Of a stretch of DNA of 32,000 nucleotides, positions 16,705 through 31,286 are shown in pieces. Made by a program: the position numbers and the translations under genes. Below the pieces are notes generated by a model. The model was not told the DNA's origin. It saw nothing but the letters and a program-made list of their open reading frames with translations, and searched no databases. Within the stretch, counting starts at the first letter, position 1, and each line of letters starts with the position of its first letter. The DNA comes from Candidatus Saccharimonadota bacterium (GTDB lineage: Bacteria; Patescibacteriota; Gracilibacteria; BD1-5; UBA2023). The DNA is taken from positions 210,001-242,000 of the forward strand of contig BAAFHK010000003.1 of assembly GCA_042852035.1 (NCBI GenBank). Direction: 5' to 3'.

Positions 16705-16854
16705 TACCAACATTTTGGTCAATGAAATTTCTATAATTTTCTCCTACCATAGAAACCTATTAGGTAAAGCAAAGTTAAGAAATGGAAAATGACATAAGAA
16801 ATAAGATGAATTGTAAAAACAGAGGAATAAACAAAAAATCTCCAACCTTTTGAT

Positions 16855-16873
16855 AGGGGGGAGATTTTTTTGA
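16855..16873 (+). repeat. Direct repeat copy 1 (attL-like): AGGGGGGAGATTTTTTTGA
   Basis: Identical 19-mer to 26684-26702. Also forms the descending arm of a hairpin with AAAAATCTCC (16834-16843). Confidence 0.7.
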
Positions 16874-16877
16874 GACT

Positions 16878-17624
16878 TTACTTTGCTTTATTTGCTAAAT
16901 CTAATATCCATTTTTTAGTGATTACCATTAAATTCTTTTGTTTATAATTTTTATCAAGATACCAAACTCTCAAAGTTTCAGATGGTAAATTATAAATATC
17001 TAATAGCTCTTGTTTGGTGAGTTTTTGTTTGTTATATGTTGTGTTAGGTTTCTCACAAGCAATTTTTTTTATTTCAGTCAAATCTTTATTGAGATCATCT
17101 ATATAACTCTTATTTGCTTTTAGTTTTTTATATCATAAAGCATAGTTCTTATAATCATTTAAGAGCAGTCAGGTTATTTTATTACATCTTGTATCATAAA
17201 GTATTTGAATGTTATTACTTTGATTATTTTGTATATGATTTCATAGTTTTCTTAATAATCCTTCCCTCTTCTTCATTTTAATAATTCACTCAATGGCAAT
17301 AGTATATGAGTAATTTGAATAAGTTGTTATATTATCAATGGTATCTGCTTTAATCCACATTCAAGCCTCATATAATCCAGCAGCACAAATTAAAGGTGCT
17401 ACTCATACTTTGGTAGCCTCTTTTAATGTCATTGTTGCTAACTCCAAAACTCATTCTTTAACAATTTCAGCATCATCATTACTATATAATGCTTCTGCTA
17501 ATCATAAATAAGGAACACAATCCTTTGCAACATCATTTGTGTATTCTGTTGCAGTTTTTGCATAGAGATTATTTGAAGCAACTAAAATGATAAAAGAAAT
17601 TACTATTAGAAATATTTTTTTCAT
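16878..17624 (-). CDS. Secreted hypothetical protein (248 aa)
   Basis: ATG 17622-17624, signal peptide MKKIFLIVISFIILVASNNLYA. Reads through several TGA into track ORF 16878..17081; length is a multiple of 3. Confidence 0.55.
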
Positions 17625-17649
17625 AATAAAGAGATTAAAAAAATAAGAC

Positions 17650-17952
17650 CTAACTTTTATAAAATTTATAAAGTTGGTAAGGAATAAGAAGAGAGCCTAT
17701 AAGCATAGATAAACATAATTTTAAGAAGTTCCAAAATAACCAGAACCACCAAGTTCCAACAAGACCTATTGTTTGAGGCTTGTGTTGATTAATAAAACTC
17801 CATCAGAGAGGAATTCAAGTAAATCAATAAACAGCAAGAATAGTTTCAGAAGAAGGGTTTCCTTGTTGTAATGAGGACATTAATCAAATTATTCAAAAGA
17901 CTAGTCATAACCATAGAGGTTTGAGTAAGTCCCAATTTCTTTTTTTATTCAT
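17650..17952 (-). CDS. Small membrane protein (100 aa)
   Basis: ATG 17950-17952 to TAG 17650-17652, six in-frame TGA. Trp-rich hydrophobic segments (GLVGTWWFWLFWNF). Confidence 0.45.
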
Positions 17953-18372
17953 AAAATATAAAAAGGTTAATGTTAAATGGATAACATCAACCTTTAAAAG
18001 AAATCAGCACTAAAAAAGGAGGATATATCCTAGTGAGTGCTGATTTCACATTTACATCTTCTAATAGTAGAGGAGGTTGGATATACCCTCCTTGTTTACT
18101 ACTATTAAAAAGACATCAAATTAGAAATTTGAGCAAGAAAAAAAGATGTTTTTGTGAAATCAGCCTGTGTATTCTATTTAAAGTTTCTTGTATTGCAAGA
18201 GCATACAGGGATTAATATATCAAAAATACCAAACAAAATAGAAAAAGAAATATAACTGCAAAATATAAAACTCTTCAAATAAAAGACAATGTAGTATTTC
18301 CAATCTCCACATTGCTTTTATTTTTTATAAGAGTTTTTGAGATAGTTTTGCATATTTCTTAACTTTCTATTT

Positions 18373-18684
18373 ATGCTTACTTCTATTTTTTGAAATACTA
18401 TTACCTTCTCTTTTAATACCCCTGTATCTGAAACAGGATTTTTATCAGAGAACTTTGATCTCACTAAAAAATCTGCTTATGCTACAATTTGAATACAAGA
18501 TTTGTTAAAATTCAAAAATGATATTCAACTACAATTTATCCTTTCTAAAATATTTTCTGCTATTAATGAAACTGCAAAAATTCAAAAATTAGATTATTTC
18601 CAAAATATCAACATAAATTGAAATGATGTATGGTGCATAGATGATGGAAATACTATTTGTCTTATGTTAAAAGAGGAGTATTAA
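18373..18684 (+). CDS. Hypothetical protein (103 aa) upstream of mod
   Basis: First ATG after in-frame TAG 18343-18345; three TGA; TAA 18682-18684. Followed by the hairpin AGAGGAG...CTCCTCT and a T-run. Confidence 0.5.
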
Positions 18685-18750
18685 GCTCCTCTTTTTGCTT
18701 TTTTTCAATTTTTCATATAATCTAGGCAATTTTACTAATAAGTTAAGAAA

Positions 18751-20742
18751 ATGGCTCTAAATCAACAAGAAAAAGAATTTCTATTGCAACTTATTAATGA
18801 ATGAAAAGATATACCAGAAGATTTCAAATATAAACTTTTTCCTACTCTACAAAAGGAGTATGAGTTAAGTTATGCAGGTAAGATGAGAAAAGAAGATCTT
18901 TTTGCTAATGAAGATGGTGTTTTTCCTGTTCCACTTCAAGTAGAAAAAACTTTTAATTGAAATGAATATAAATGATTTGAAGATGGATGGAAAAATATGA
19001 TCGTGTTTTGAGATAATTTACAATTCTTAAAAACAATTTATGAGAATAAAGATGATACCATTAAAGATAAGATTAAAGGAAAAGTGCAATTAATATATAT
19101 TGACCCACCATTTGCAACTACTGATGAATTCCAAAATAAAGAATGAGCTAAGGCTTATAATGATAAAAAAATAGGGTCTGAATTTATTGAATTTCTTAGA
19201 AGAAGACTACTGATTGCAAGAGAAATACTTAGTGATAAGGGGGTAATATATATTCATCTGGATTGGAAAATGTCTCAATATATCAAAATAGTTTTAGATG
19301 AAATATTTTGAAAAAATAATTTTAGAAATGAAATTGCTTGGTGTTATAGTTGACCTTGAAAAAGCAGTAAATCTTTTATAAGAAAACATGATACAATTTT
19401 ATTTTATGCAAAAAATTGGAAAGAAAGCACTTTTAATATACAAAGAATAGAGCATAAATCATGAATTCATAATAGAGGAGCATATCTATGAAAGGAAAAT
19501 GAAGATGCATGAGAACTTGTTGAAAAACTTGAAGAAGAATGAAAGAGATTAGAAGATTGGTGGACTGATATATATACTGCAGACAGAAAAAGAAATGAAC
19601 TAATCTGATACCCTACACAGAAACCAGAAGCACTATTAGAGAGAATAATTATGGCAAGTTCTAATGAGTGAGACATAGTTATGGATTTTTTTGGAGGCTC
19701 ATGAACTACAATGGCTGTTGCAGAGAAATTATGAAGAAAATGGATTAGTTGTGATTTATGAAAACTAGCCTATTTTACAGAACAAAAAAGAATACTTACT
19801 ATTCAAGATAGTAAATCCCTATTAGATGAAAAGAAAAACTATTGAAAAAAAGCAAGGAGTTTTATGACCTGCACTCTATGAATGTATAACTTGAAGGATA
19901 CTCTTGATTTAGAATGGAGTAAGTATAAAGAATTTGTAGGAACACTTTTTGATATAGATATTAAAACTACTACTATTTGATGAGTTGAATTTGATGGGAA
20001 AAAGTGATCTGCTCCTGTAAAAATGTGGGACTATAATAAGCATAAGGATGCAAATGTTGATGAAACATATATTAATACACTTCATCAGTCTATTAAGGCA
20101 AAAACAAGTAGAGTTTATATTGTTGCCCCTGCAAATAATATAGGTTTTATTAGTGATTATTTTGAAATAGATGGAACAAGATACTATTTCTTAAAAATAC
20201 CTTATCAGGTTATAAAAGAACTTCATAAAAAATCATTTCATAAAATTAGACAACCACAAAGTAAGAAGAATGTAAATGATCTTGAAGAAGCAATAGGCTT
20301 TCACTTTATCAAGAAACCAGAAGTAAAATCAAAAATAGTTGTTTCTAATGATGAAATATGTGTAGAAATTTCAGAGTTTAGAAGTCAGTATTATAAAGAT
20401 GAAGAATGAAAAATATTAGAAAATTTTGAAACTCTATCTGCTGTTTTTATAGATGCTAATTTTAATGGAGATCAGTTTATAATGACAGATGTAAAATTTG
20501 CTGATGATTTATTGTCAAAGAAGAAAAAAGGTAAGAAGGTAGATGAAGATGAAGAGATTGATGCAGAATTAGATGAAGATGAAGAAGGGGTAAGTAATGA
20601 AGAGATTAGAGCAGAATTAAAAGAAACAGCAAATAAAGGATTAAAAATAATACTTCCAAGAAAAAAAGTAGGAGATAAAGTAATGCTTATCTATACAGAT
20701 ATTTATGGGAATGATTTTACAGAAATACTAACAGTCAATTAA
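18751..20742 (+). CDS. mod: Type III restriction-modification methyltransferase (Mod), beta-class N6A/N4C MTase
   Basis: Motif IV LIYIDPPF precedes motif I DFFGGS-G(TGA 19702-19704)-TTMAVAEKLGRKWISCDL. I count 23 in-frame TGA. In frame with track ORFs 20023..20409 and 20482..20742. Acidic C-terminal insert. Confidence 0.85.
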
Positions 20743-20743
20743 T

Positions 20744-23344
20744 ATGCAAGATATACATATTTTTAGAAATCAAGACCTAGTCTTAAAAGTTAATCCTACT
20801 TATGATCCTACAAAATTAAGATTAAAAGAATGGGATAGTTTTTTAGATAAACTTTGTTGAGATAGAGATTATCAGAAAGAAGCAATAAAGCAGGTGATTA
20901 TCTTTATGGTGTGAGGAAAATATAAAAAAATAGAGGATTTAGCAGAGGAGAATTATAAAAATAATCCTGAACTACAAATAAAATATTCATCTCTTGAAGA
21001 TTATTTACATAAATTACAAATTCAGGGAAAGTTATTTGCTAATATTGATCTTGCCACCTGAACTGGAAAATCTTATGTAATGTATGGTATAGCACAAATA
21101 ATGTTGGGATTATGAGTTGTAGACAGAGTATTGCTACTTTGTCCCTCTTTGACTATTGAAGCAGGGTTAAAAGAAAAATTTGAAAGTTTAAGTTGAAACC
21201 AGCAACTAAAAGATGCTATACCTGAAAACTCCATAATAAAAAATCCAAGAATTATTGATGCAAACCAAACCATTAAAAGCGGAGATATATGTATAGAAAA
21301 CATACATGCAGTATATGAAAAAACAGGATCTTCTATACAAGATAGTCTAAAATGAACTGGCAGTAATGTATTAGTTCTTAATGATGAATCACACCATATT
21401 TTTAATAAATCTTCTGATAAAGATGTTAAAAAATGGAAGGAGTTTTTAACTAATGATGATTTTTGATTTCAGTATATAGTTTGATTTACAGGAACAGCAT
21501 ATATTGATAATAACTATTTCAATGATGTTATATATAGATTTTCATTAAGAGAAGCAATAGAAAATAAGTTTGTGAAAAGTATTGAGTATGTAGCAAAAGA
21601 TGATAGTATTTGAAAATGAGAAAAATTTCAAAAGATCCATCAAAACCATATTGATAATATAGATAGATACCCAAAGATTAAACCTCTTACTATTCTGATT
21701 ACAGCAGATATTGAAAAAGCAGAAGAATTAAAAGATGATTTAGTTGAGTTCTTGATGCAAAAAGAGAATAAAAGTAAAGAACAGATAGAAGAAAAGGTTT
21801 TAATTATCACTTCTCATAAAGATCATAAAAGTAATTTACTAAAACTAAAAACAGTTGATAGCAAAGAAAATAAAACTGAATGGATTATATCAGTTTCTAT
21901 GTTAAGTGAAGGTTGGGATGTAAAAAATGTTTTTCAAATTGTTCCTTGGGAAGATAGGGCATTTAATTCAAAACTACTTATATCACAAGTTTTATGAAGA
22001 GGTTTAAGAGTGCCACCAGAATATGAATTACCACAACCAAAAGTGATAGTATTTAATCATGATGCTTGGAGTAGAAATATCATAGAACTTGTAAATGAAG
22101 TGTTGGAGATTGAAAAAAGAGTGGTAAGTGAGGTGCTTGATAGTTGAGACAGAAGTAAATATAATTTTGAAGTATTTAATCTAGATTATTCAAAAGAAGA
22201 AGTGGAAGTTGAATTAGAAACAAAAGAAAGTGTGATGAATTTTAGTAGAATATTTAATGAATGAATTAAATTGGAAGCACAGGTTGAGGAAATAGAAAAA
22301 TGAACTGTATTTGAGAGTTTAGGTTGAACTCAATCCCAGAGAGAAAAAAATTACTTGATTGAATATGCAACAACTTCTGTTGATGATATAGTAGATAAAA
22401 TCTATTCTGAATTTGAAATGAGGGATTGGGAATGAAAAGTGCTACAACTTAATCAAGAACAATATACTCAAAATAATCTACCTCCTAGAACAGTAATTAA
22501 GGAAATTATTATAAAATCAATGCAAAAACTCTGAATTAAGGGGGAAAGATTGATAGAAAAAAATAAAAATCATATCCTTTCAGGATTTTGAACTTTATTA
22601 AGAAAAAAGAATAAAACAGTTATTACAAAACTTAAAGTCAATGATCCTATACTAATAAAAACCATAGAAGTAGATAGAGAAAGTTTAGGAATTTGAAATT
22701 TTAGAAAAGATTGCACTGTATTTCTGACAACAAACTATTTACAGGAAGTAAATGAAGAACAAGGTGCTATTCTTTCTGAATTAAGTGAAGATGAAAGCCT
22801 CCCTAGAAGTGCAATCAAAGAGCAGAATGAGTATTTATTTAAAACACCCCTTAATGTTATCTTAACAAAATGAGAACCTGAAAGAAAATTTATTGAAGGT
22901 TTATGTAAGCAAGATGTTGTTGAAAAAATTAATTGTTGGATTAAATCGAGAGATAGAGGCTTTTATGGTATAGAGTATAGTTTGAGATATTGAGATAAAT
23001 GAAGTAATACAAGGAGATATACAAATAAAAAATTTAACCCTGATTTCTTTATTCAAATACAAAAAGAAGATATAAAATATACTCTTGTTATTGAAACAAA
23101 GATGGATTGAGATGATAGTGAAGAGAACAAAGCAAAATATAAATATGCATTAGAACATTTTAATAGATTAAATGAAGAACTAGAACAGAGAGGAATAAAT
23201 GAAAAATACATTTTTCATTTTCTTAGCCCCCAATGATATTCAACATTTTTTGAATATTTAAAAGATGGAAGAATATTGGAAGGACAAGAAAAGTATAGGT
23301 GTGCTCTTGAAAATAGCCTAGAAAATAATGAAGAGGAGCTATAA
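20744..23344 (+). CDS. res: Type III restriction enzyme Res subunit (SF2 helicase plus PD-(D/E)xK nuclease)
   Basis: ATG 1 nt after the mod stop (TAATATG). DLAT-G(TGA 21059-21061)-TGKS, LNDESHH, GFTGTA, SVSMLSEGWDVKNV, QVL-G-RGLR. C-terminal NPDFFIQ...LVIETK nuclease motif. 866 aa. Confidence 0.85.
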
Positions 23345-24091
23345 TAAGGAAATTGCATACTTCCCTGTAAAGTTTTCTTTTAGGATTTCTTCATATTTTT
23401 CTTTTTTATAATCCCAACAAGACACAATCAAAATAAGGTTCTTTTCTCTAAACAGAGGAAAGAACTTTTTATTATTCTTTCTAGTATTCATATCTTCATA
23501 TCCTAGTACTTTCTGATGAAACTGTTTGTATGAGTTCATATTTTCTAATTCAAGACAATAGGCTGTATTTCAGATACTTAATAGTAAATCTGGTATCATA
23601 ACAAAATCTAGATATTCATATTTAGTTTCAGGATTTTTTAACTCTGTTTGAAGTATTTTTTGGATTGTTTTTGATCCTGTAAAATATTCTGCTTTCAATA
23701 CAAAATCCTTATTTTTATTTCTAATCTTTCATAGGAAATAAACAAAGAGATCTCATAATAGTAGTTGATGATTATATAGGGTATAACTGGTATTATAAAT
23801 TGATGGTTCATATTTTATTCAGGTCTCATAATAAATCCTGTTTAGGACTATTTCAGTAGTATTTAGCATATAAATACTATACTGGCTTATACTTTTATAT
23901 TCTTGTTTCAGTTCTTTTATAAATCAATGCTTTTTCAGGAGGAGTAGCCTTATATTAAAGGTTTTATGTTGGGTTTCTGGACTAACAATATTTTTTAGAT
24001 TTCTAGAACTACAAAATCATAATTCATTTAAAGTATGAAATATTAACAAGTCCCTAGGTGTTAAAACTATATTTTCTCTGGTTTTATTCAT
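23339..24091 (-). CDS. Replication-relaxation-family-like protein (wHTH plus PD-(D/E)xK-like core), 250 aa
   Basis: Translated codon by codon from ATG 24089-24091. N-terminus LTPRDLLIFHTLNELGFCSSRNL; later HQLLLGD and MIPDLLLSIGNTAYCLELEN. Stop overlaps the res stop by 6 nt. Confidence 0.5.
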
Positions 24092-25538
24092 ACTTTTCTC
24101 AATTAGATTTTAAAAGTTTCTGTATATTTTGATCTCAAATATTTAAAGACTGTGTTAATATGCTTAAAGTTCAGTGGTTAATAGTGTCAAAAACAGAATA
24201 GAACTCTCATCTTTTGAGATTAACAATATCTTTTTCACTTATTGCAAACTTTTGCTCTAATCAAGAATTGGTAATAGGAACAAATAACTCTGCCTGTTCT
24301 GGTGGTAATGCAAAAATAAGTGAATAACTCAAATTATTTAGTAAATCCTGTAATTCTCTACTGATACTCTGGAATATAAACAACATATTTATTTTTTTCT
24401 TCCTGTGTTCATTTAGTATTTTCTCTAAAATATCTAACATATGATTTTTACTACCTTGGAGTTCGAGAAAACTTTGAAATTCATCACAAGTATAATAATG
24501 GCTTCATAAGTTGGGATTATTATGATTTTTACCTGCTCCAATGTGATATAAAATGTTTGTAAGGAAAGATATTACTACTCTTCTTTCTTGGGTATTGAAT
24601 ACTGAAAAATCAAATAGATATACTTCTGTTTGTTTCTTTTCTCAACTCATATAGTGTTCTATGTCCAATGTAAGTTCTTTATAACTTTTTCAATATCCAA
24701 AAGTATCTCCTAATCAAAAACTAAAATCTTTCAATTTTGTTAAACTGGTAATATGAGACTGTTTATCTACTTGAAGATCTTTAAGAAAAGTTTTTAACTC
24801 TTGGTCTACTCCATTTGCAAGTTGGAGTATGTCAGAATGAGTAGAAGAAAATAGTTTTTTTCTATCTTCATCAAGATAAGTAGGAAGTTTCTGGCATCTA
24901 CTGGTATAATCTAACAAATCATATAAATCCCTATAAGATAATAAAACATTGTCAGGATCTCTATGGTATCTTTCTATATTGATAACTATAAAACTTCTTA
25001 TAAGTCCCTCTAATACTTTTGTGTTTGAGGGTCAGAAAGCAGAGTAGTTAAATACTCATTTCAAAGAGGAGATATTATAGTTTACCCATTTATTTAAGTC
25101 TGTAATATCTTCTACAAGAGACAAAGCAAATAGTGGATTAAAGAAAAATGTTTTATCCATATAAAACCCTCTATATTTTTTATTATTTTCAATAGTTTCA
25201 TTGGAAAATCTAAAAATATCTCAATATCTGCTTAATTTTGGATTATCTATTAAGTATTCTCATAAAAGATTTAACAAAGGATTTATAAATGAGTTATGGG
25301 GATCAATACAAACAAAAGTATCTCCATACTTTGTATTATCTGGTTGAGACTGTTGTAAAATTGAAGATTTTATAGTAGAAAATAGGGTAGATACTAAACT
25401 GTATGTTTTGCCACTTCAAGATTTTCAGAATATTCATCAATGACCGGATTTTAAAATATTGTAGTTGAGTGATAAAAGTGCTTTATCTTCTAGTATATGG
25501 GACTTCTGGACTGTCCCTATGGGTATAATGTGAGACAT
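24084..25538 (-). CDS. HerA/FtsK-superfamily (T4CP-like) P-loop ATPase, 484 aa
   Basis: PIGTVQKSHILEDKALLSLNYNILKSGH-G-GIF-G(TGA 25425-25427)-KS-G(TGA 25416-25418)-SGKT Walker A; HYYTCDEFQSF Walker B. No N-terminal TM. Stop overlaps the downstream start (ATGAATAA). Confidence 0.6.
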
Positions 25539-25572
25539 AGTATAGGCTGGTTAAGTGATATGTTATATTGTA

Positions 25573-26475
25573 TTAATAAAAATTAAGATTTTTGATTAAA
25601 TTACATTCAAAAAATCATGAACTAGGTAAAATTATGGCTTTATCCTGAATAGTTCCTGAAATATGGGAAAGTGGTAAAAATAGCCCTTGTGATAATAGTG
25701 CTTCCGGTTGAAGTAGTCTTTTATACTGTGGTATATAATCTAAAAATGTTTTATATTCAGTTATTGAGTAGGAATTATACAGAGATGCATATAGTCCAAG
25801 GTTCTTATACAAAATACTTTTAATATCCCTATATTGCAGGTTATGTGATATATTAAATTGAAATAGAAACATGTTCTGGCTTTCAGTAAAAGAACTTATA
25901 AAACTCTCCTGCTCCTTTTCATTCATATTTTTACTTTTCTGGGTATATAAATAATCCTTTACTAATGATGAATAAGATCCCTTTGAGAATGAAAAGAGTA
26001 TTTTAATAACTTCATTTTCATTAATGAAGGGCAATATTTCCTGTATGAATGAACTTTTTATAGATGAGGAGGTTGTAAAGTCTCAGGCTCATAAAGCACC
26101 AAGTTTCTTAATTTGTAATACAGAGTGGTTATTAAGTCAGATTTTATAAATATGCTTGTATGATTGTCTTAATATGAAATCCCTTTTTATGTCTATTGAA
26201 AAACTGATCTTTCAGTTGTAGAGTTTGATAAAAAACTGCATTATATAATTAATACCTTCAAGACTATTAGAAAATATATATTCATCTATAAAAACTCTAT
26301 TTTTAGCCTGATAGCAATGTGTTTCCATTCAAAACCATAGATGAGGGAGGTAGAAAGCATTTAAATCATTCTTGATGGAATTTATAAGGTTTTCTCAAAA
26401 GTTGGTTCAAGGATTGATTTTTAAATAGAAAAGTTGATGCTCTGGAAAATATGGAATATTTGAAATTTGAAACAT
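25573..26475 (-). CDS. Hypothetical protein (300 aa), first gene of the minus-strand trio
   Basis: ATG 26473-26475. Track ORF 25615..26034 extended both ways through TGA; TAA 25573-25575. No motif recognised. Confidence 0.5.
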
Positions 26476-26560
26476 GGAGATCAAAATTAATAAAACAAAT
26501 AATCATTATATTAATTTTTAGAAACTATGGATTATGTCATTGTATATTCTTCATTACCTA

Positions 26561-26688
26561 CCCCTGTAATTTTTAGACTTTCTTTTATTTAAAAGGAAAA
26601 GAGCCTAATAGGTCATAACTTAAAACTTATGACCTATTAGGCTCTAACCACACCTTATTTATAGTGGAAAGTCTAAAAATTACAGGGG
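26561..26688. repeat. Nested perfect palindrome (22-bp outer arms, 19-bp inner hairpin)
   Basis: Outer arms CCCCTGTAATTTTTAGACTTTC (26561-26582) / GAAAGTCTAAAAATTACAGGGG (26667-26688). Inner arms AGAGCCTAATAGGTCATAA (26600-26618) / TTATGACCTATTAGGCTCT (26627-26645), 8-nt loop. Confidence 0.9.
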
Positions 26689-26702
26689 GGAGATTTTTTT
26701 GA
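26684..26702 (+). repeat. Direct repeat copy 2 (attP-like): AGGGGGGAGATTTTTTTGA
   Basis: Identical to 16855-16873. Flanked by the inverted half-sites GTCTAAAAA (26671-26679) and TTTTTTGAC (26695-26703). Confidence 0.7.
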
Positions 26703-26748
26703 CTAAAGGAAGAAAAAGATATACTTGATATTAATTAATGTAATTATT

Positions 26749-27783
26749 ATGACTAGATTAATAGATGGGGTAAGGGAGGCAGGATTGGAACAAGGAACAG
26801 ATGGAAGAGTAAGCAAAGAAAAAGTAAATGAGATGTTAGAGTTTTTTAGTAAAGCATTTTGAGAAGATGCTATATTATCTGTATGAGGATTTGATAAGAA
26901 ATTAGTTGATGCTGTTAAAGAAAATGACAATATCATTAAAAGATTATTACAATCAGAATTAGAAAGAAATTGTAGATATGAAATGAATATAAGCACTTCT
27001 AATGTTAAAGAAGTTATTGAGTGGATTGATATTATCAATAACAACCAAGAAAAAAATGGTTGAATTATCTGAAAACAATTTAGATTTACTGCTAGTATTA
27101 TTGAGGCATTACTTGCATTTTTAAAACTCTATCAATCTGCAAATATTGTTAATCAAAATGAAAATGGAAGAGAAAAAGAAATAATTCTGGTTTTGATTGT
27201 TAAGACTTTAAGGTATGCAATAGGTTCTGGAAAGAATGGTTTTACAGGAATAAAGTCTGATTTATTTTCAAAGTTTGAAGAAGTATTGCATAGGATTTTT
27301 GATGATGCTGATATTGAAACAGATGAGAAAACACAACTTATTTTTCAGTGAAGTGCAGGATCTTATGGAAATGCACCAAAAAATAATGTATGGATAGAAG
27401 ATTTTATTAGATCTGTTTCAGGAGATGGCTGAAATGTATTAGTTCATTTTTTAAAAAAATCACAACTCAATAAAACAGAGTTATTATTATATACTGATAA
27501 AAATATTGTAGAAGTTATCATTGAATATTGAAATAACTTTATATTTATTCTTACAAATAGTAGAGAATGGAAAAAGGAGGCAGTTTTACTTTATAAAACT
27601 ACTGAAAATATCTTGCAGGATCAAGTTAATAGATGATGAATTGAAAAAATTATTAATCTATTTCTTCAATGAGGTTTACCAGTTGAAAAGAATGATAATC
27701 TAAAAGTTATTAGTAGAAATGATATTTTAGATAGAAAGTTTATTGCAGAAGAAGACTTTGGTAAAATTATTCAAATTTCTTAA
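26749..27783 (+). CDS. Hypothetical protein (344 aa)
   Basis: I checked every codon 26749-27783: no TAA/TAG, 11 TGA. No recognisable motif. Confidence 0.55.
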
Positions 27784-27822
27784 TTTCCTTTTATTAAGGT
27801 GGGTATGGGTATTTTTTAAATT

Positions 27823-29376
27823 ATGGACTTACAAAAAAAGATTACAGACACTCTGGATTTACAAATAAATGCTGATGATATTTTATATTCAAATATTGAT
27901 AAGTTAGGCTTTTATTTTAAGTCATCAGAACTATTCTGATATTTTAAATCAAAAGATCCATTTCCAGATAAAGAAGAAGTTATTACTATCTGAGATACAA
28001 AGTATAATTTTCTAGTTTATCTTTCAGATAAAGACTTGAATGGATATGATAAAAAACTATGACTAAAAATAGAATATAGAGGGGAATATTATGAGGTTAT
28101 AGATATTCTATTTAACATAAAAGAAAGTAGATATTTATGTGTTTTTCATGGAAAGTTGTGGAGGTTTTCAACTCTAAAAGAGTTTGGATTTTCAAATCAA
28201 ATATTAATTGAATTTATATCAAAAAACTTTACAGAGATACAATTAAGAGAAATTCATATTTGTTTAGATGTAGAAGAGAAAGAAGATTATCTAACTAGGA
28301 TTAATGAATATATTAAAAACTATGTTCCAAAGGTATTCAATAAAGATACCTACAATTTTAGTAGTTGAAATTTATGAAGACAAATTGAAATAGGTTTGCC
28401 AGACAGAAAGAATAATAAAGAGTTTTTTTATAAAATTTATAATAAGACTTTACAGGCTAGGAAGATGTGAATTGATAAAATATATGTTGATTATTGTTTA
28501 TCTACTGAAAAGAATGTGTTTAGATATGAAATAGAGTTTAGACAAAATATAGCAAAAACCATTAAATTAGAAGACTTAAAGTTAATCTGACCTATACTAG
28601 AAAATAAGAAACAGATGCATGCAGGGAAGTATATTTTGAATGAATGGATTTGTAGAACTCTTATTTCATATTTTGTAGACAAACAAAAATTTGATTTTGT
28701 GTTTTGACAACTCAATATTGAGAATGTGAAACTTAAAAGGTCTGAAAATAGAGCCACAGGTTCAGTTGGCAAAAGAATAAGTGATTTAAACCTGATAGGA
28801 CAGCTAAAATCTTTAAGAACCCAAGCAAAGAATATAGAAAGCACTACTTGAATACCCTTGAAGAACAACTTTGATAAGTTAGATGAAATTATAGGAGAAA
28901 GTCAGGATTACAGATATTATATCACTATTTATAGAGGAATTTTCAGGACAATAAAAAACCATTATGAAGAAAATGAGGTAAAGGATTTTGATGAACTTTC
29001 TGAATTGATAAAGGGGGCTACTACCTATGCACTCAATTTTCTAAAAACTGATTATAACAACTTCTTTAAGATTATAAGATGATGAATTAATAGGAATGCT
29101 GATAGTGTAATAGAGTTTCTTGCAGATAATGAAAACTCTTTAAGTGAATTGATTTATTTTTATTACTTTTGAAGATTAAGAGAATGAATATTGTTTGATT
29201 TCCTAGATGTTCTAAAAGAATGAAATATGCCATTATTTCAAAAATATTTTGAAGATGATAAGAAGTTAAGAGAGAGTATTGCAAATAAACAAAAATCAAT
29301 AAGTATGCTGAATGATGATAGTAATTTATCCTTTGATGATTACTCAAAGTCAGTTTTTAATATATTTTATAAATAA
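27823..29376 (+). CDS. Rep_trans-like rolling-circle initiator / MOB_T-type relaxase candidate (517 aa)
   Basis: I checked every codon. LREIHICLDV, QIEIGLPDRKNNKEFFYKIYNK and VFRYEIEFRQN resemble the R.D...D, ..YdK and R.E.e.R blocks of the replication initiation factor (Rep_trans) family as I recall them. Confidence 0.5.
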
Positions 29377-29387
29377 TCTCATTTTCT

Positions 29388-31286
29388 ATGGAACAATCAA
29401 AGAAAAAAAGAGTAGGAATATACATTAGAGTTTCTACATTAGACCAAGCAAAAAAAGGAACTTCTCTTGAAGATCAAGAGCAGAGTTTAAAATTATATAT
29501 ACAAGCAAACTCAATAGATGGTTGGGAACTTGCTGAAAATGGAGTTTACAGAGATGATGGAATTAGTGGTTTTAAGGGTATAGCAGATAGACCTGAATTT
29601 GATAGATTAATGAATGATGTGAATGACAAAAGATTAGATATTGTTTTGGTATATAGAATAGATAGACTAGCAAGAAATACAGAATTACTGCTGAATACTG
29701 TTAAGAAATTTAAAGTAAAGTGAGTGCAGTTTGTGAGTATGAGTGATAGAATTGATACAGATACAGCAAGTGGGAAGATGCTACTTGCTATACTAGGTGC
29801 TATGGCTGAAATGGAAAGGAACTTGATTTATGAAAGGACATATGCTTGAAAGATTAGAAAATTAAGTATGGGTTATGCTTCCTGATGATGATTTGATTTA
29901 CCACTTGGTTATAAAAAATGAGAAGATGGGAAGATAATGATTGATGAGCCATATAAAGAGTTAATCCAAGAGATTTTTGATCTTTGTACTGGGGAGAAGC
30001 ACTTTACACCAAAAGAAATTGCTGCTGAATTATCATCAAGGGAAGAAACTACTTGGTGGGATAAAAAAATGGCAAAACTTAAAAAGAAACAAGTTAAAAC
30101 AGGTGTCTGGAATGCAGATACAGTAAGAAAGATACTTCTCAATCCTATTTATAAATGAGTATACTATTTTTGAAAAACAAGAAAAGTGCTTGCAGATAAT
30201 GAAGAAGATGAAATTACTGTAAAAGTTCCAGAAGAAGAATGGCTACCAGTTCCTATGCCTTGTGGTTGAATTATTACAGAGAAACAATGGGAAGATGCTA
30301 AATATCAAATTCAAAAGATTAATAAAATTAATAGAGGAAGATGAAGAAGCCATATCTTTACAGGTCTAATTAAGTGTGGGTTTGACTGAATGAGTTATAT
30401 TTGTTATAGGTCAAAACAGAAGAAAGTTGAATACTTTTATTATAGATGTGGTGGAACAAATGCGTCTAAAAATGAGAATAAAAGAAAAGATACTGATGTA
30501 GGAAATATTGATATGCCTTTGTGTAATAATCTACAAGTTCCTGAATTAGAACTTTATAACTACTGTATTGATATTATTACAAGGTTCATAGAAGAACCAG
30601 AAGCACTATATAAACAAAAAATAGGGAATGATGAGGAGTTTAAGAAACAAAAAAAGATCCTTGAAACAAAAATAGAGGAAGATAAGTTAAAAATTAAAGA
30701 ACTTGAAGTTACTATAACATCATTGTATTATCAGAAATCAAAAGATAAAATAAATGCTGATAACATACAAAATGTGCTTGATACATACACACAAGATAAA
30801 GAAGCAGCATTGAAAAGACTTGAAAATAATGAAAAAGATTTGCTAAATTCAGAAAATCAGTTAAATTCTGGCAAGCAAATGAAACAGTTTGCTGAGACTT
30901 ACAAAGATAAACTTGCAAATCTTACAGAGGAACAAGGAACAGAACTTATTAGGTTGTTAGTTGATAGGATTGAAGTTAAAGGAACGTTAATTACAGTATT
31001 CTTTAAGTTCAAACCACACCCAGAGAGTTTTACACATAGTCAAACTCTAAAAAAAAACTCTAAAAAAATAGAGGGGGGAGATTTTACAACAAGTTCTACA
31101 CCAAACAAGCAGTCTCTCCAACATATATGCAGCCGTAGTTCAGTTGGATTAGAACGCCTCCCTGCGAAGGAGGAGGTCACAGGTTCGAGCCCTGCTGGTT
31201 GCACCATTTCAACTCATAGAAGACTCTTCAGTACCATTTTTTGGCTCTGGGGAGCTTTTTTTAGGTTCGTACTCATCTATACTTAA
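29388..31286 (+). CDS. Large serine recombinase; ORF has no stop before the element end and reads through tRNA-Arg
   Basis: VGIYIRVSTLDQ...YRDDGISG...RPEFDRL...VLVYRIDRLARN catalytic domain; recombinase domain; HIFTGLIKCGFD-G-MSYICY...YFYYRCGG zinc ribbon; coiled coil. In-frame stops 29388-31283 are all TGA; first TAA is at 31284-31286. The functional C-terminus is probably near 31030-31090. Confidence 0.8.
31072..31085 (+). repeat. Direct repeat copy 3 (attR-like): AGGGGGGAGATTTT
   Basis: 14-nt identity with copies 1 and 2. Left flank CTCTAAAAAAA resembles the copy-2 left flank GTCTAAAAA. Lies inside the recombinase ORF tail. Confidence 0.65.
31129..31206 (+). tRNA. tRNA-Arg (anticodon GCG), CCA encoded
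   Basis: Anticodon arm CCTCC-CTGCGAA-GGAGG (perfect), D arm GTTC/GAAC, T-loop TTCGAGC. The acceptor stem has two G-U pairs and the T stem has one A-C mismatch in my fold. Confidence 0.75.

What the first reader, a model, noticed from the sequence alone, without database searches (positions are those of the whole stretch)
23339..26475. Three-gene minus-strand module: unknown 300-aa protein, HerA/FtsK-type ATPase, wHTH plus PD-(D/E)xK replication-relaxation-like protein
The genes are tightly coupled. The ATPase stop overlaps the next start in ATGAATAA, and the last gene overlaps the res stop by 6 nt. The ATPase has a HerA-like N-terminus (PIGTV...ILKSGHGGIFGKSGSGKT), a DE Walker B and no TM segment. 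The last protein starts LTPRDLLIFHTL.. and carries IPD...ELE. In Firmicutes and Actinobacteria this pairing marks single-ATPase (FtsK/TraB or T4CP-like) DNA transfer modules, which would make X a mobilizable or conjugative element in an episymbiotic CPR bacterium. Alternatively, an ATPase plus nuclease next to a Type III R-M fits a HerA-nuclease type anti-phage system. Either would be new for this lineage, and the first gene has no recognisable family.
Basis: partly seen in the sequence, partly recalled or inferred. Interest (0 to 1): 0.7.

Follow-up and report, generated by a model that had tools for sequence, protein, structure and literature searches.

The report
Mobilization module of a Gracilibacteria island
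The three genes are most likely the DNA-nicking and DNA-pumping module of a small integrated mobile element in a recoded candidate-phylum bacterium; it is a very divergent version of a relaxase-plus-ATPase pair already known from Gram-positive plasmids and islands, and the neighbouring restriction system is its cargo.

Summary
Under genetic code 25 (UGA = Gly) three coupled minus-strand genes lie at 23339-26475.

The "unknown 300-aa protein" (A) is not a separate unknown. Relatives carry A fused to the ATPase (B) as one protein of about 780 aa, and A's predicted fold matches only the full-length VirB4 ATPase of plasmid R388.

B is a P-loop ATPase of the FtsK/HerA/VirB4/VirD4 superfamily with no membrane segment. 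I could not resolve its clade.

C is a divergent MOB_C (Pfam Replic_Relax) protein: a putative N-terminal DNA-binding domain plus a PD-(D/E)xK nuclease fold, with the same D…ExE residues as the pAD1 relaxase TraX.

A 19-23 bp DNA hairpin inside a ~128-bp nested palindrome lies 115-153 nt upstream of A. It is intact in 11 of 12 related loci and covaries strongly. It resembles the pAD1-type transfer origin.

A-B-C co-occur in every testable locus, usually near a large serine recombinase, with variable defence cargo downstream of C.

Best reading: the mobilization (possibly also replication) module of a ~14-kb integrative mobilizable element. It is a new variant of a known kind. The defence reading is unlikely.

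The parts
25573..26475 (-). Gene A (300 aa): the detached N-terminal domain of the module's ATPase. No P-loop and no TM segment. Predicted fold resembles the N-terminal domain of VirB4 (TrwK).
   Evidence: ORF under table 25; identical to HHAS10_12080. No Pfam, NCBIfam, PHROG or PADLOC hit. AF2 model has pLDDT 60 and pTM 0.65. The top six Foldseek PDB hits are all full-length TrwK/VirB4 chains (E = 2.7e-4, probability 1.0, TM normalised to query 0.47-0.50). Homologous to the first ~270 aa of fused 755-824 aa relatives.
24084..25538 (-). Gene B (484 aa): P-loop ATPase of the FtsK/HerA/VirB4/VirD4 superfamily. Walker A is GKSGSGKT at residues 38-45 and Walker B is CDEFQ at about 351-355, with roughly 300 aa between them. 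No TM segment.
   Evidence: Pfam DUF87 at 26.7 bits, P-loop region only. PADLOC mad8 at 1e-13 and HerA at 1.7e-6. PDB profile search gives only weak hits to HerA and EccC. In the 1.84-billion-protein library only 26 relatives have E<1e-3; 8 are fused with an A-like N-terminus, and the outgroups carry DUF87 + TrwB_AAD_bind + TraG-D_C. Local profile scores: PcfC/VirD4 18 bits, Tn916 Orf21/TcpA 17 bits, VirB4 references 5-7 bits.
23339..24091 (-). Gene C (250 aa): divergent MOB_C / Replic_Relax protein with a putative N-terminal (w)HTH and a C-terminal PD-(D/E)xK nuclease fold. Conserved H108, D168, E181 and E183 (PD…ExE). Candidate relaxase or nickase.
   Evidence: AF2 residues 100-250 have pLDDT of about 90. 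The specific Foldseek PDB hits are PD-(D/E)xK nucleases (Can2, McrC, arenavirus endonuclease, OkrAI, HincII), all weak with best E = 8.5e-3. BFVD top hits are ~275-aa Bacillus-phage proteins. BLASTP E = 1e-28 to the L010 265-aa protein, which passes the Pfam PF13814 gathering score (28.4 vs 25.3 bits), the same score as the pTEF1 TraX homolog (28.5). The alignment to TraX is collinear and shares D…ExE.
26561..26688 (.). Nested palindrome in the intergenic region upstream of A. Outer arms are 26561-26596 and 26653-26688 (36 nt, 83% complementary). The inner hairpin is 26600-26645 (19-22 bp stem). The conserved flank GTGTGGT lies at 26647-26653 on the minus strand. Candidate oriT or nick region.
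   Evidence: The inner hairpin lies 115-153 nt upstream of A and is intact in 11 of 12 split-type loci. 93.7% of cells pair, against 34-45% when slid. 11 of 19 pairs change on both sides and none changes on one side only, so the constraint acts on DNA. pTEF1 (pAD1-like) has the same architecture between its T4CP and TraX genes: a ~142-bp nested inverted repeat plus a 12-nt direct-repeat array.
29388..31286 (+). Large serine recombinase, the element's integrase. As integrated, the ORF runs across the right att-like repeat and through tRNA-Arg.
   Evidence: N-terminal RVGIYIRVSTLDQ motif. Homologs in L002, L004, L007 and L009 carry Pfam Resolvase. Recombinase-profile hits occur in 9 of 15 loci.
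16855..16868 (+). Left copy of the 14-bp repeat AGGGGGGAGATTTT, a candidate attL core at the left edge of the low-GC island.
   Evidence: GC profile. Expected occurrences of this 14-mer in the window are about 9e-5 per strand.
26684..26697 (+). Internal third copy of the 14-bp repeat, abutting the palindrome. Its two flanks match the inner flanks of the two terminal copies, so it looks like an attP-type (P-O-P') site.
   Evidence: L020 carries the equivalent copies at positions 61 and 4438.
31072..31085 (+). Right copy of the 14-bp repeat, a candidate attR core 44 nt upstream of tRNA-Arg (31129-31206).
18751..23344 (+). Type III restriction-modification genes: mod at 18751-20742 and res at 20744-23344. 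They are cargo in the variable hotspot between C and the conserved 103/104-aa gene, not part of the module.
   Evidence: The homologs in L020 (85% DNA identity) carry Pfam N6_N4_Mtase and ResIII. Other loci hold different genes at the same position or nothing at all (L015, L016, L021).
18373..18684 (+). Conserved 103/104-aa protein that closes the cargo hotspot. No known family.
   Evidence: Present in 9 of 15 loci and always convergent with C. No Pfam or PHROG hit.

Best explanation
The three genes are the DNA-processing and mobilization module of a small integrative mobilizable element. The element is about 14.2 kb here (window ~16855-31085) and is integrated by a large serine recombinase between tRNA-Cys and tRNA-Arg.

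Proposed mechanism:
1. The recombinase excises the island as a circle. (Inferred.)
2. C recognises the structured region upstream of the operon through its N-terminal DNA-binding domain. Its PD-(D/E)xK domain, with D168, E181 and E183, nicks one strand at or near the conserved hairpin and its GTGTGGT flank. (C's family and residues are shown; nicking is inferred.)
3. A and B together form one two-domain ATPase. A is a VirB4-N-terminal-like docking domain and B is the P-loop motor. This ATPase acts as the element's own coupling or translocation ATPase and hands the nicked DNA to a transfer channel encoded elsewhere. The most plausible channel is the chromosomal VirB4-type T4SS that is widespread in Patescibacteria. 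(The split and fused forms and the superfamily are shown; the partner channel and the direction of transfer are inferred.)
4. The same nick may also prime rolling-circle replication of the excised circle, as happens for other relaxases.

The Type III R-M genes are cargo in a hotspot between C and a conserved 104-aa gene.
For: C belongs to MOB_C/Replic_Relax:
- It is homologous (E = 1e-28) to a protein that passes the Pfam gathering score, with the same score as a genuine TraX homolog.
- It shares D…ExE with TraX, collinearly.
- Its C-terminal domain has a nuclease fold.
- PF13814 is the MOB_C relaxase superfamily (PMC5357655; PMC12857230).

A+B is one protein:
- Fused relatives of 755-824 aa exist.
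- A's model hits only full-length TrwK/VirB4.
- B's nearest outgroups carry T4CP-type Pfam domains.
- That outgroup ATPase is itself followed by a Replic_Relax-like gene.

The gene order, ATPase followed by a MOB_C-type gene, matches pTEF1/pAD1, where the order is T4CP, oriT, TraX.

Candidate oriT:
- A conserved, covarying DNA hairpin lies within a nested ~128-bp palindrome at a fixed distance upstream of A.
- This architecture matches the pTEF1 oriT region.

Backbone behaviour:
- A-B-C co-occur in 14 of 14 testable loci. A serine recombinase is present in 9 of 15 loci. The cargo next to the module differs between loci: Type III, Type II and Type I R-M, HamA with a DEAD-box helicase (Hachiman-like), Abi_C, and an SNase-containing set.
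- The island has low GC (27% vs 37%) and is bracketed by an att-like 14-mer.
- A second, 42-50% identical A/B pair exists elsewhere in the same MAG.

A T4SS is present in Gracilibacteria, and MOB_C is the commonest relaxase detected in Patescibacteria, often next to t4cp (PMC12102498).
Against: - The window's C does not itself reach any Pfam threshold. Its membership is transitive.
- The canonical Lys of the (D/E)xK motif is replaced by Glu.
- hhalign of the C family against a single TraX sequence is weak (E = 0.035).
- B cannot be assigned to VirD4 or VirB4 by sequence. Canonical coupling proteins have N-terminal TM helices, which A and B lack.
- A's VirB4-like fold rests on a model with pLDDT 60, and there is no sequence-level support.
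- No T4SS channel genes lie in any of the loci, and I could not check whether this MAG has a T4SS.
- Direct-repeat arrays like the TraX binding site are not consistently present next to the hairpin.
- A perfect DNA palindrome between divergent genes could be an operator for a dimeric regulator rather than an oriT.
- No excised circle or empty site was observed.
Confidence: 0.6

Rival explanations
1. Replication module only. After excision the circle replicates autonomously. C is the initiator that nicks the origin (the hairpin acts as a double-strand origin), and A+B is the replicative helicase or translocase. There is no intercellular transfer.
For: - The Pfam family is named for both plasmid replication (pUA140) and relaxation (CloDF13) (PMC3424549).
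- C has a weak hit to phrog_2190, 'replication initiation protein' (E = 0.0039).
- Relaxases such as ICEBs1 NicK do both jobs (PMC5357655).
- No TM segment and no channel genes are present.
- A hairpin next to a conserved flank suits a rolling-circle origin as well as an oriT.
Against: - The ATPase's nearest recognisable relatives carry T4CP-type domains (TrwB_AAD_bind, TraG-D_C), not replicative-helicase domains.
- A's fold points to VirB4, a T4SS component.
- The experimentally characterised members of this family (TraX, MobC) are relaxases (PMC12857230).
- This reading is not exclusive of the best explanation.
Confidence: 0.2
2. Anti-phage defence system of the HerA-ATPase plus PD-(D/E)xK-nuclease type, sitting in a defence island next to the Type III R-M.
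For: - B hits PADLOC mad8 (1e-13) and HerA models (1.7e-6), and Pfam DUF87.
- The best PDB sequence hit is a HerA from a defence complex (8wiv, E = 0.18).
- C has a nuclease fold whose best structural matches include the Can2 and McrC defence nucleases.
- The neighbouring genes are defence genes.
Against: - C is homologous to MOB_C/Replic_Relax, not to NurA, Sir2, DUF4297 or Cap4-type partners. No PADLOC model hits A or C.
- The trio is the invariant part, while the defence genes next to it change from locus to locus or are absent (L015, L016, L021).
- A conserved structured DNA site lies upstream of the operon.
- The A domain matches VirB4, not the HerA HAS-barrel.
- The mad8 and HerA hits reflect the shared P-loop superfamily.
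Confidence: 0.08
3. Self-transmissible minimal element. The two-domain VirB4-like ATPase is itself the transfer motor, for example working with the host's type IV pilus or competence apparatus, or across the episymbiont-host contact. The element would then be conjugative rather than merely mobilizable.
For: - The architecture of a ~300-aa soluble N-terminal domain plus a ~480-aa ATPase, totalling ~780 aa without TM, resembles VirB4 (796-830 aa, no TM) more than coupling proteins.
- VirB4 is the signature of conjugative systems (PMC4027160, title and abstract as listed).
Against: - No VirB3, VirB6 or VirB8-type membrane genes, pilins or hydrolases are conserved in the element.
- B's sequence scores lean slightly towards T4CP/TcpA rather than VirB4.
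- Elements as small as ~7 kb leave no room for a channel.
Confidence: 0.07
4. Remnant of a phage or phage satellite, in which the ATPase is a genome-packaging motor and C a phage replication protein.
For: - Weak PHROG hits of B to a terminase large subunit (6.5e-4) and of C to a replication initiator.
- C's model matches ~275-aa proteins of Bacillus phages. Those phages carry a MobC-like relaxase plus a TM-less VirD4-like ATPase in a 'DNA translocation operon' (PMC3357382).
Against: - No capsid, portal or tail genes occur in any locus.
- There are no relatives in the phage record collection or in IMG/VR.
- The phage operon cited was itself interpreted as a relaxase/coupling-protein pair, not as a packaging system.
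Confidence: 0.03

Closest known systems
Streptococcal IME_Class_8 (Coluzzi et al. 2017, PMC5357655): coupling protein (VirD4) + MobC/PF13814 relaxase + serine integrase
   Same: The same three-function set in a compact integrated element: a coupling-type ATPase gene, then a MOB_C-type relaxase gene, with a serine integrase nearby. Both are mobilizable rather than self-transmissible because they lack a channel.
   Different: - The ATPase here is split into two genes and has a soluble VirB4-like N-terminal domain instead of TM helices.
- Both proteins are too divergent for the Pfam models.
- The host is a code-25 Gracilibacteria rather than a Firmicute.
- There is a defence-cargo hotspot downstream of the relaxase.
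- The recombinase lies on the other side of the module, with variable genes in between.
pAD1/pTEF1 TraW (T4CP) - oriT - TraX (MOB_C relaxase), and CloDF13 MobB/MobC
   Same: - The gene order is ATPase then relaxase.
- The relaxase is ~250-260 aa, with an N-terminal HTH and a C-terminal PD-(D/E)xK domain carrying D…ExE.
- A large nested inverted repeat of ~130-140 bp lies next to the module.
   Different: - In pTEF1 the palindrome lies between the two genes and is followed by an array of about six 12-nt direct repeats. Here it lies upstream of the whole operon and no consistent array is seen.
- TraW has TM helices.
- pAD1 also encodes the full T4SS.
- No tblastn-detectable similarity to any record in the plasmid collection.
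MOB_C relaxases next to t4cp genes in Patescibacteria (PMC12102498)
   Same: The same phylum-level host group. MOB_C is the most frequent relaxase class found there (58 of 109), and 39 relaxase genes lie close to a t4cp. A chromosomal VirB4-type T4SS is available as a potential channel.
   Different: That survey used MOBscan and CONJscan profiles. [quoted passage not shown] The split ATPase, the conserved hairpin and the element structure were not described there, as far as the passages I read show.
'DNA translocation operon' of Bacillus phage 0305phi8-36 (orf200 MobC-like relaxase + orf201 TM-less VirD4-like ATPase; PMC3357382)
   Same: A MOB_C-like protein is paired with a coupling-type ATPase that lacks TM helices. 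C's model finds ~275-aa proteins of large Bacillus phages as its best viral matches. The temperate relatives have recombinase genes adjacent.
   Different: The setting is a phage genome. There is no sequence-level match to the window proteins. The function of the phage operon is itself unknown, as it was non-essential in the laboratory.
VirB4 (TrwK of R388; PDB 7o42, 8rtd)
   Same: Two-domain, TM-less architecture of about 780-820 aa. A's predicted fold matches only full-length TrwK chains. The C-terminal domain is a P-loop of the same superfamily.
   Different: - There is no sequence similarity to the VirB4 references or to Pfam VirB4 families.
- The N-terminal domain is shorter (~300 aa vs ~440 aa).
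- The spacing between Walker A and Walker B is longer (~310 aa vs ~200 aa).
- No VirB3, VirB6 or VirB8 genes lie nearby.
- The partner gene is a relaxase, which is typical of coupling proteins rather than VirB4.

Membership tests
MOB_C relaxase / Pfam PF13814 Replic_Relax | Match to the family profile at or above the curated threshold | tested here: inconclusive
   The window's C gets no hit even at E<=1. Its homolog in L010 (31% identity, BLASTP E = 1e-28) scores 28.4 bits against a cutoff of 25.3, equal to the pTEF1 TraX homolog at 28.5 bits. Membership is therefore transitive, not direct.
MOB_C relaxase / Pfam PF13814 Replic_Relax | C-terminal PD-(D/E)xK nuclease fold with conserved acidic catalytic residues | tested here: met
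   Residues 100-250 are modelled at pLDDT ~90. The specific structural matches are PD-(D/E)xK nucleases, all with weak scores. D168, E181 and E183 are invariant in 14 family members, conserved in L009 and L010, and aligned with TraX's D…EIE. The canonical Lys position is Glu, as in TraX.
MOB_C relaxase / Pfam PF13814 Replic_Relax | N-terminal (winged) helix-turn-helix DNA-binding domain | tested here: inconclusive
   The N-terminal 100 residues are modelled at pLDDT ~40, with a helix-helix-helix-strand-strand pattern. The relative L010 has sub-threshold hits to LexA_DNA_bind and HTH_24 at the equivalent position. hhalign aligns this region with TraX's wHTH.
MOB_C relaxase / Pfam PF13814 Replic_Relax | Encoded next to a coupling-type ATPase, with a cognate oriT containing a large inverted repeat | tested here: met
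   B lies immediately upstream with an 8-nt overlap. The pairing holds in 14 of 14 loci and in the outgroup L023. A nested 128-bp palindrome with a covarying hairpin lies upstream of the operon, comparable to the pTEF1 oriT region. Function as an oriT has not been shown.
MOB_C relaxase / Pfam PF13814 Replic_Relax | Site- and strand-specific nicking of oriT DNA | not testable with these tools
   Needs biochemistry.
VirB4 (T4SS ATPase) | N-terminal domain of VirB4 fold followed by a C-terminal P-loop domain, in a soluble ~800-aa protein | tested here: inconclusive
   A's model (pLDDT 60, pTM 0.65) matches only full-length TrwK chains (probability 1.0, TM normalised to query 0.47-0.50) and no structures that contain only the C-terminal domain. 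This implies the N-terminal domain is what matches. Fused relatives are 755-824 aa. There is no TM segment. B was not modelled.
VirB4 (T4SS ATPase) | Sequence membership (Pfam CagE_TrbE_VirB or AAA_10; similarity to reference VirB4 proteins) | tested here: not met
   A, B and the fused relatives have no such Pfam hits. The B profile scores only 5-7 bits on TrwK, PrgJ and Tn916 Orf16. The A profile finds nothing in their N-terminal domains.
VirB4 (T4SS ATPase) | Encoded with VirB3, VirB6 or VirB8-type channel genes | tested here: not met
   None of the 15 loci shows such genes around the module.
VirD4-type coupling protein (T4CP) | N-terminal transmembrane anchor | tested here: not met
   The maximum hydropathy in A and B is 1.0, against 2.3-3.1 in TrwB, PcfC, TraW and Orf21. 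TM-less relatives of T4CPs are reported to be common (PMC3357382).
VirD4-type coupling protein (T4CP) | Nucleotide-binding domain matching TrwB_AAD_bind, TraG-D_C or T4SS-DNA_transf | tested here: inconclusive
   B has no such hit. The fused relative P0065 has TraG-D_C at E = 0.0015, below threshold. The outgroups P0077 and P0078 have TrwB_AAD_bind above its cutoff and P0077 has TraG-D_C just below. The B profile scores 18 bits on PcfC but only 1 bit on TrwB. tblastn against plasmids gives 'TraM recognition domain' genes at E = 0.05-0.2.
VirD4-type coupling protein (T4CP) | Gene adjacent to the relaxase gene | tested here: met
HerA (HerA-NurA repair or HerA-based defence) | HerA central domain (DUF87) across the ATPase core, with a HAS-barrel N-terminal domain | tested here: not met
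   The DUF87 match covers only residues 20-88, around Walker A. The PADLOC HerA models match only the Walker B region. A's fold search returns no HerA structure.
HerA (HerA-NurA repair or HerA-based defence) | Partner nuclease or effector of NurA, Sir2 or DUF4297 type | tested here: not met
   C is Replic_Relax-related. No PADLOC model matches A or C.
FtsK / TraB / TcpA dsDNA translocases | FtsK_SpoIIIE domain and membrane anchor | tested here: not met
   No PF01580 hit for B and no TM segment. The score against Tn916 Orf21 is 17 bits, in the P-loop and Walker B regions only.

The most novel reading that the evidence does not exclude
These elements are mobilized through the chromosomal VirB4-type T4SS of Patescibacteria. 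That system is currently thought to have been co-opted for non-conjugative, host-interaction roles because relaxases seemed to be missing. If so, the module would be one of the 'very different relaxases yet to be found', together with a dedicated split coupling ATPase. It would also mean that episymbiotic CPR bacteria actively exchange DNA by conjugation, including cassettes of anti-phage defence genes and possibly across the symbiont-host contact.
Probability: 0.2. Interest if true: 0.8.

Novelty: new variant of a known kind. Interest (0 to 1): 0.5.

Why it matters
Horizontal gene transfer in the Candidate Phyla Radiation is poorly understood. A recent survey (PMC12102498) found T4SSs throughout Patescibacteria but almost no relaxases, and concluded that the system probably does not conjugate.

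This family of serine-recombinase elements carries a MOB_C-like nickase that standard profiles miss, a dedicated two-part ATPase and a conserved oriT-like hairpin. It gives concrete, testable candidates for the missing DNA-processing functions. It also shows how restriction-modification, Hachiman-like (HamA plus DEAD-box helicase), Abi and other defence cassettes move among Gracilibacteria.

The finding also reassigns a 'hypothetical' 300-aa protein as the detached N-terminal domain of the ATPase. It supplies profiles (alignments A1-A3) and a DNA motif that can be used to annotate these elements.

Tried and rejected
- Single-sequence searches of A, B and C against Pfam, NCBIfam, PHROGs, PADLOC and PDB sequences gave nothing for A or C and only P-loop-level hits for B.
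- The circular-plasmid idea for the ~7.2-kb contigs was rejected. There are no terminal overlaps, and the contigs contain a recombinase and chromosomal-type flanks elsewhere.
- By eye I suspected the 517-aa protein (27823-29376) was a Rep_trans/MobT-type protein. It has no similarity to Tn916 MobT and no Pfam hit, so I dropped the idea.
- The genes between the recombinase and A are not conserved between loci.
- Local HMM and hhalign comparisons with TrwK, PrgJ, Orf16, TrwB, PcfC, Orf21, TraW and the pTEF1 VirB4-like protein could not resolve whether B is of VirB4 or VirD4 type.
- tblastn of B, a fused relative and C-type proteins against the plasmid and phage collections found only three marginal B hits in plasmids (best E = 0.05) and nothing else.
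- The IMG/VR scans found no relatives. The GTDB and JGI metagenome scans found only 3 loci each, because the method depends on exact peptide patterns.
- The CloDF13 RefSeq record has a frameshifted mob region and could not serve as a MobC reference.
- Francia et al. 2013 (PNAS) is not held in the library.
- The MADS preprint gives no domain information for mad8.
- Direct-repeat arrays next to the hairpin are not consistent across loci.
- Rfam finds nothing but tRNAs in the window.

Full report

Yes. The window uses genetic code 25. Table 11 leaves only fragments, while reading UGA as a sense codon gives long ORFs with 6-24 in-frame TGA each.

The three minus-strand genes are:
- C: 23339-24091, 250 aa
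- B: 24084-25538, 484 aa
- A: 25573-26475, 300 aa from the ATG

They are identical to HHAS10_12060, _12070 and _12080 of a 'Candidatus Altimarinota' (Gracilibacteria) MAG. B and C overlap by 8 nt (ATGAATAA). C overlaps the convergent res gene by 6 nt. A and B are 34 nt apart.

**2. Setting**

The genes lie in a low-GC island (27% against about 37%) spanning roughly 16.8-31.3 kb, between tRNA-Cys and tRNA-Arg. From left to right the island holds:
- a 248-aa secreted protein and a 100-aa membrane protein
- a conserved 103-aa protein
- Type III mod and res
- C, B and A
- a 240-bp intergenic region
- a 352-aa and a 517-aa protein
- a 632-aa large serine recombinase, whose ORF runs into tRNA-Arg

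**3. What A and B are**

B on its own matches only generic P-loop models of the FtsK/HerA superfamily. These are DUF87 around Walker A, PADLOC mad8 and HerA, and weak HerA and EccC hits in the PDB.

A profile of the B family searched against 1.84 billion representative proteins found only 26 relatives. Eight are proteins of 755-824 aa in which B aligns to residues ~290-790. Their first ~270 residues are homologous to A (BLASTP 7e-31 and 7e-23). The shared signature is QIKKLGALG…F.TSSSI in A against FQIKKPWEIGLNTFSSSSGII in P0060. A and B are therefore the two halves of a single protein.

A has no sequence family. Its AF2 model (pLDDT 60, pTM 0.65) gives, as its top six PDB matches, only full-length TrwK/VirB4 chains from the R388 T4SS (E = 2.7e-4, probability 1.0, TM normalised to the query 0.47-0.50). 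No structure that contains only an ATPase domain was hit, so I infer that the VirB4 N-terminal domain is what matches. This rests on a moderate-confidence model, and local HMM and hhalign tests give it no sequence support.

B's closest recognisable outgroups (P0077-79) carry DUF87 plus TrwB_AAD_bind and TraG-D_C, which are coupling-protein domains. Against reference proteins the B profile scores:
- 18 bits on PcfC (VirD4)
- 17 bits on Tn916 Orf21 (TcpA)
- 5-7 bits on three VirB4 proteins
- 1 bit on TrwB

The clade is unresolved. The architecture (soluble N-terminal domain plus ATPase, about 780 aa) resembles VirB4. The long spacing between Walker A and Walker B, and the partner gene, resemble a coupling protein.

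**4. What C is**

C itself has no Pfam hit. Two C-like proteins follow the fused ATPases in L010 and L009, and C is clearly homologous to both (E = 1e-28 and 4e-26). The L010 protein passes the Pfam gathering score for Replic_Relax (28.4 bits against 25.3). That is the same score the genuine TraX homolog of pTEF1 obtains (28.5 bits).

C's C-terminal half is modelled with confidence (pLDDT ~90). It structurally matches PD-(D/E)xK nucleases, though with weak scores. D168, E181 and E183 are invariant in the family and align with the D…EIE of TraX.

The literature equates PF13814 with the MOB_C relaxase superfamily, whose prototypes are TraX of pAD1 and MobC of CloDF13. These have an N-terminal winged HTH and a restriction-endonuclease-like catalytic domain (PMC5357655, PMC12857230, PMC3424549).

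**5. A new feature: a conserved structured DNA site**

The 240-bp region upstream of A contains a nested palindrome. Its outer arms are 26561-26596 and 26653-26688, and its inner hairpin is 26600-26645.

The inner hairpin (stem 18-23 bp, loop 4-10 nt) recurs 115-153 nt upstream of A. It is intact in 11 of 12 split-type loci and decayed in L021. It is preceded by a conserved GTGTGGT(T)AGAG.

On a 10-sequence alignment:
- 93.7% of cells pair, against 34-45% when the partner is slid
- 11 of 19 pairs show changes on both sides
- the covariation score is 0.62, against 0.18 in shuffles (0 of 500 reach it)
- no pair shows a one-sided G·U-type change

This argues for a constraint on DNA, either a hairpin/cruciform or a dimer-binding site, rather than an RNA. 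Rfam finds nothing there.

The pAD1-like plasmid pTEF1 has the same kind of structure between its T4CP and TraX genes. It is a ~142-bp nested inverted repeat followed by an array of about six 12-nt direct repeats, consistent with the published description of the TraX binding site (PMC12857230). Comparable arrays are not consistently present in the Gracilibacteria loci. I treat the site as a candidate oriT or nick region. That is an inference, not a demonstration.

**6. Backbone versus cargo**

I examined 15 distinct loci (36-100% identity for B, including two fused-type loci, one of which comes from a 57%-GC, standard-code organism). The results were:
- A lies next to B in 14 of 14 testable cases.
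- C lies next to B in 14 of 14 testable cases.
- A large serine recombinase lies within the DNA held in 9 of 15.
- A conserved 104-aa protein closes the region in 9 of 15.

Between C and the 104-aa gene the content varies:
- nothing (L015, L016, L021)
- Type III R-M (window, L020)
- Type II R-M plus an S24 peptidase (L001)
- an SNase-containing three-gene set (L004)
- HamA plus a DEAD-box helicase, which looks like Hachiman (L007)
- Abi_C (L008)

L009, which lacks the 104-aa gene, carries a Type I R-M upstream of the module instead.

The module is thus the constant core of a mobile element, and the defence genes are its cargo. The same MAG also has a second, diverged copy of A and B. No relatives were found in the plasmid, phage or IMG/VR collections.

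**7. Element ends**

The 14-mer AGGGGGGAGATTTT occurs three times: at 16855, 26684 and 31072. About 9e-5 occurrences per strand are expected by chance.

The outer copies bracket the island. The internal copy shares its left flank with the right-end copy and its right flank with the left-end copy. That is the pattern of attL / attP-like / attR expected after tandem accretion. L020, an 85%-identical element, has the equivalent copies. I did not find an empty site or a circular junction, so this remains a hypothesis.

**8. Mechanism proposed**

1. The serine recombinase excises the island.
2. C binds the structured region and nicks it.
3. The A+B ATPase couples or pumps the DNA into a transfer channel encoded elsewhere.
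4. The same nick may support rolling-circle replication.

A survey of Patescibacteria (PMC12102498) reports that VirB4-type T4SSs are widespread, including in Gracilibacteria. It found relaxases to be rare, with MOB_C the commonest and often next to t4cp. This makes a chromosomal helper channel plausible, but I could not test that for this genome.

**9. Comparison and verdict**

The closest known systems are:
- streptococcal IME_Class_8 (VirD4 + MobC + serine integrase)
- pAD1 TraW/TraX and CloDF13 MobB/MobC
- the MobC-like plus TM-less VirD4-like pair of Bacillus phage 0305φ8-36 (PMC3357382), whose relatives are C's best viral structural matches

This module differs in five ways:
- the ATPase is split
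- the ATPase has a VirB4-like soluble N-terminal domain
- the sequences are extremely divergent
- the host is a code-25 CPR bacterium
- there is a defence-cargo hotspot

I rate it a new variant of a known kind. My confidence in the mobilization reading is 0.6, and my interest score is 0.5. The defence reading is unlikely (0.08). A purely replicative role (0.2) is compatible with part of the model.

Noticed in passing
window 16855-16868, 26684-26697, 31072-31085 (and L020 61-74, 4438-4451): The 14-mer AGGGGGGAGATTTT occurs three times. The two outer copies bracket the low-GC island. The flanks of the internal copy combine the inner flanks of the two outer copies, giving an attL / attP-like / attR pattern. 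This suggests the island is a tandem accretion of two units: 16.9-26.7 kb carrying the A-B-C module and the R-M genes, and 26.7-31.1 kb carrying the recombinase.
   Followed up: partly
window 29388-31286 and tRNA-Arg 31129-31206: As integrated, the serine recombinase ORF reads through the right att-like repeat and the whole tRNA-Arg gene, because code 25 leaves no stop. In a predicted excised circle it would end 9 codons after the repeat (…GGDFFETLLCFIC*), giving about 575 aa. The integrase C-terminus would then depend on the integration state.
   Followed up: partly
window 18751-23344; L001 2528-6547; L004 12160-16496; L007 12220-15233; L008 3550-4305; L009 4077-8844: There is a cargo hotspot between the relaxase-like gene C and the conserved 104-aa gene. 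Different loci hold different defence systems there: Type III R-M, Type II R-M with an S24 peptidase and DUF1508, an SNase/HSP70-like set, HamA with a DEAD-box helicase (Hachiman-like), and Abi_C. L015, L016 and L021 hold nothing there. In L009, which has no 104-aa gene, a Type I R-M lies upstream of the module instead.
   Followed up: partly
window 18373-18684 (+); homologs in L001, L004, L007, L008, L015, L016, L020, L021: A conserved 103/104-aa protein (C-terminal motif …KLDYLQ..IN…VWCIDNGDTICLMTKEEY) always lies convergent with C at the far side of the cargo. It has no Pfam or PHROG family. It may be a recombination directionality factor, a regulator or a relaxosome accessory protein.
   Followed up: partly
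whole window; database proteins P0002-P0054: The organism uses code 25 (UGA = Gly). Many database homologs were translated with table 4, so Trp appears where Gly belongs. Walker A, for example, appears as GKSWSGKT. This contaminates alignments and could lower profile sensitivity for the whole lineage.
   Followed up: no
same MAG, HHAS10_04600 and HHAS10_04610 (P0015, P0051), outside the window: A second, diverged copy of the A and B genes (42% and 50% identity) lies on another contig of the same genome. The genome therefore probably carries two elements of this family.
   Followed up: no
L015 7455-8126: In one relative the module sits next to a 223-aa fragment resembling the N-terminus of ComM/YifB (my reading of the sequence; not tested against any profile). 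No recombinase lies in the 9 kb held upstream. This may be an insertion into comM, a classic target of integrative elements.
   Followed up: no
L004 9039 and 9957; L007 9039 and 9939: A 19-21-nt word (AAAAAGTCATATATACAATAT) is repeated just upstream of both the A and B start codons in two lineages. It looks like a shared leader or translation-initiation element.
   Followed up: no
window 26725-27783 and 27823-29376: Two genes (352 aa and 517 aa) lie between the recombinase and the palindrome. They have no detectable family and are replaced in other lineages by unrelated genes of ~225-232 aa. This is a second variable slot in the element.
   Followed up: partly
L021 1040-1109: In this locus the left arm of the conserved hairpin has decayed into an AT-rich sequence, while the right arm and the GTGTGGT flank are intact. 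The element may be inactivated.
   Followed up: no
window 16833-16870: The left att-like copy doubles as the 3' arm of a terminator-like hairpin (AAAAAATCTCC…GGGGGGAGATTTTTT) directly after the stop codon of the 248-aa gene.
   Followed up: no
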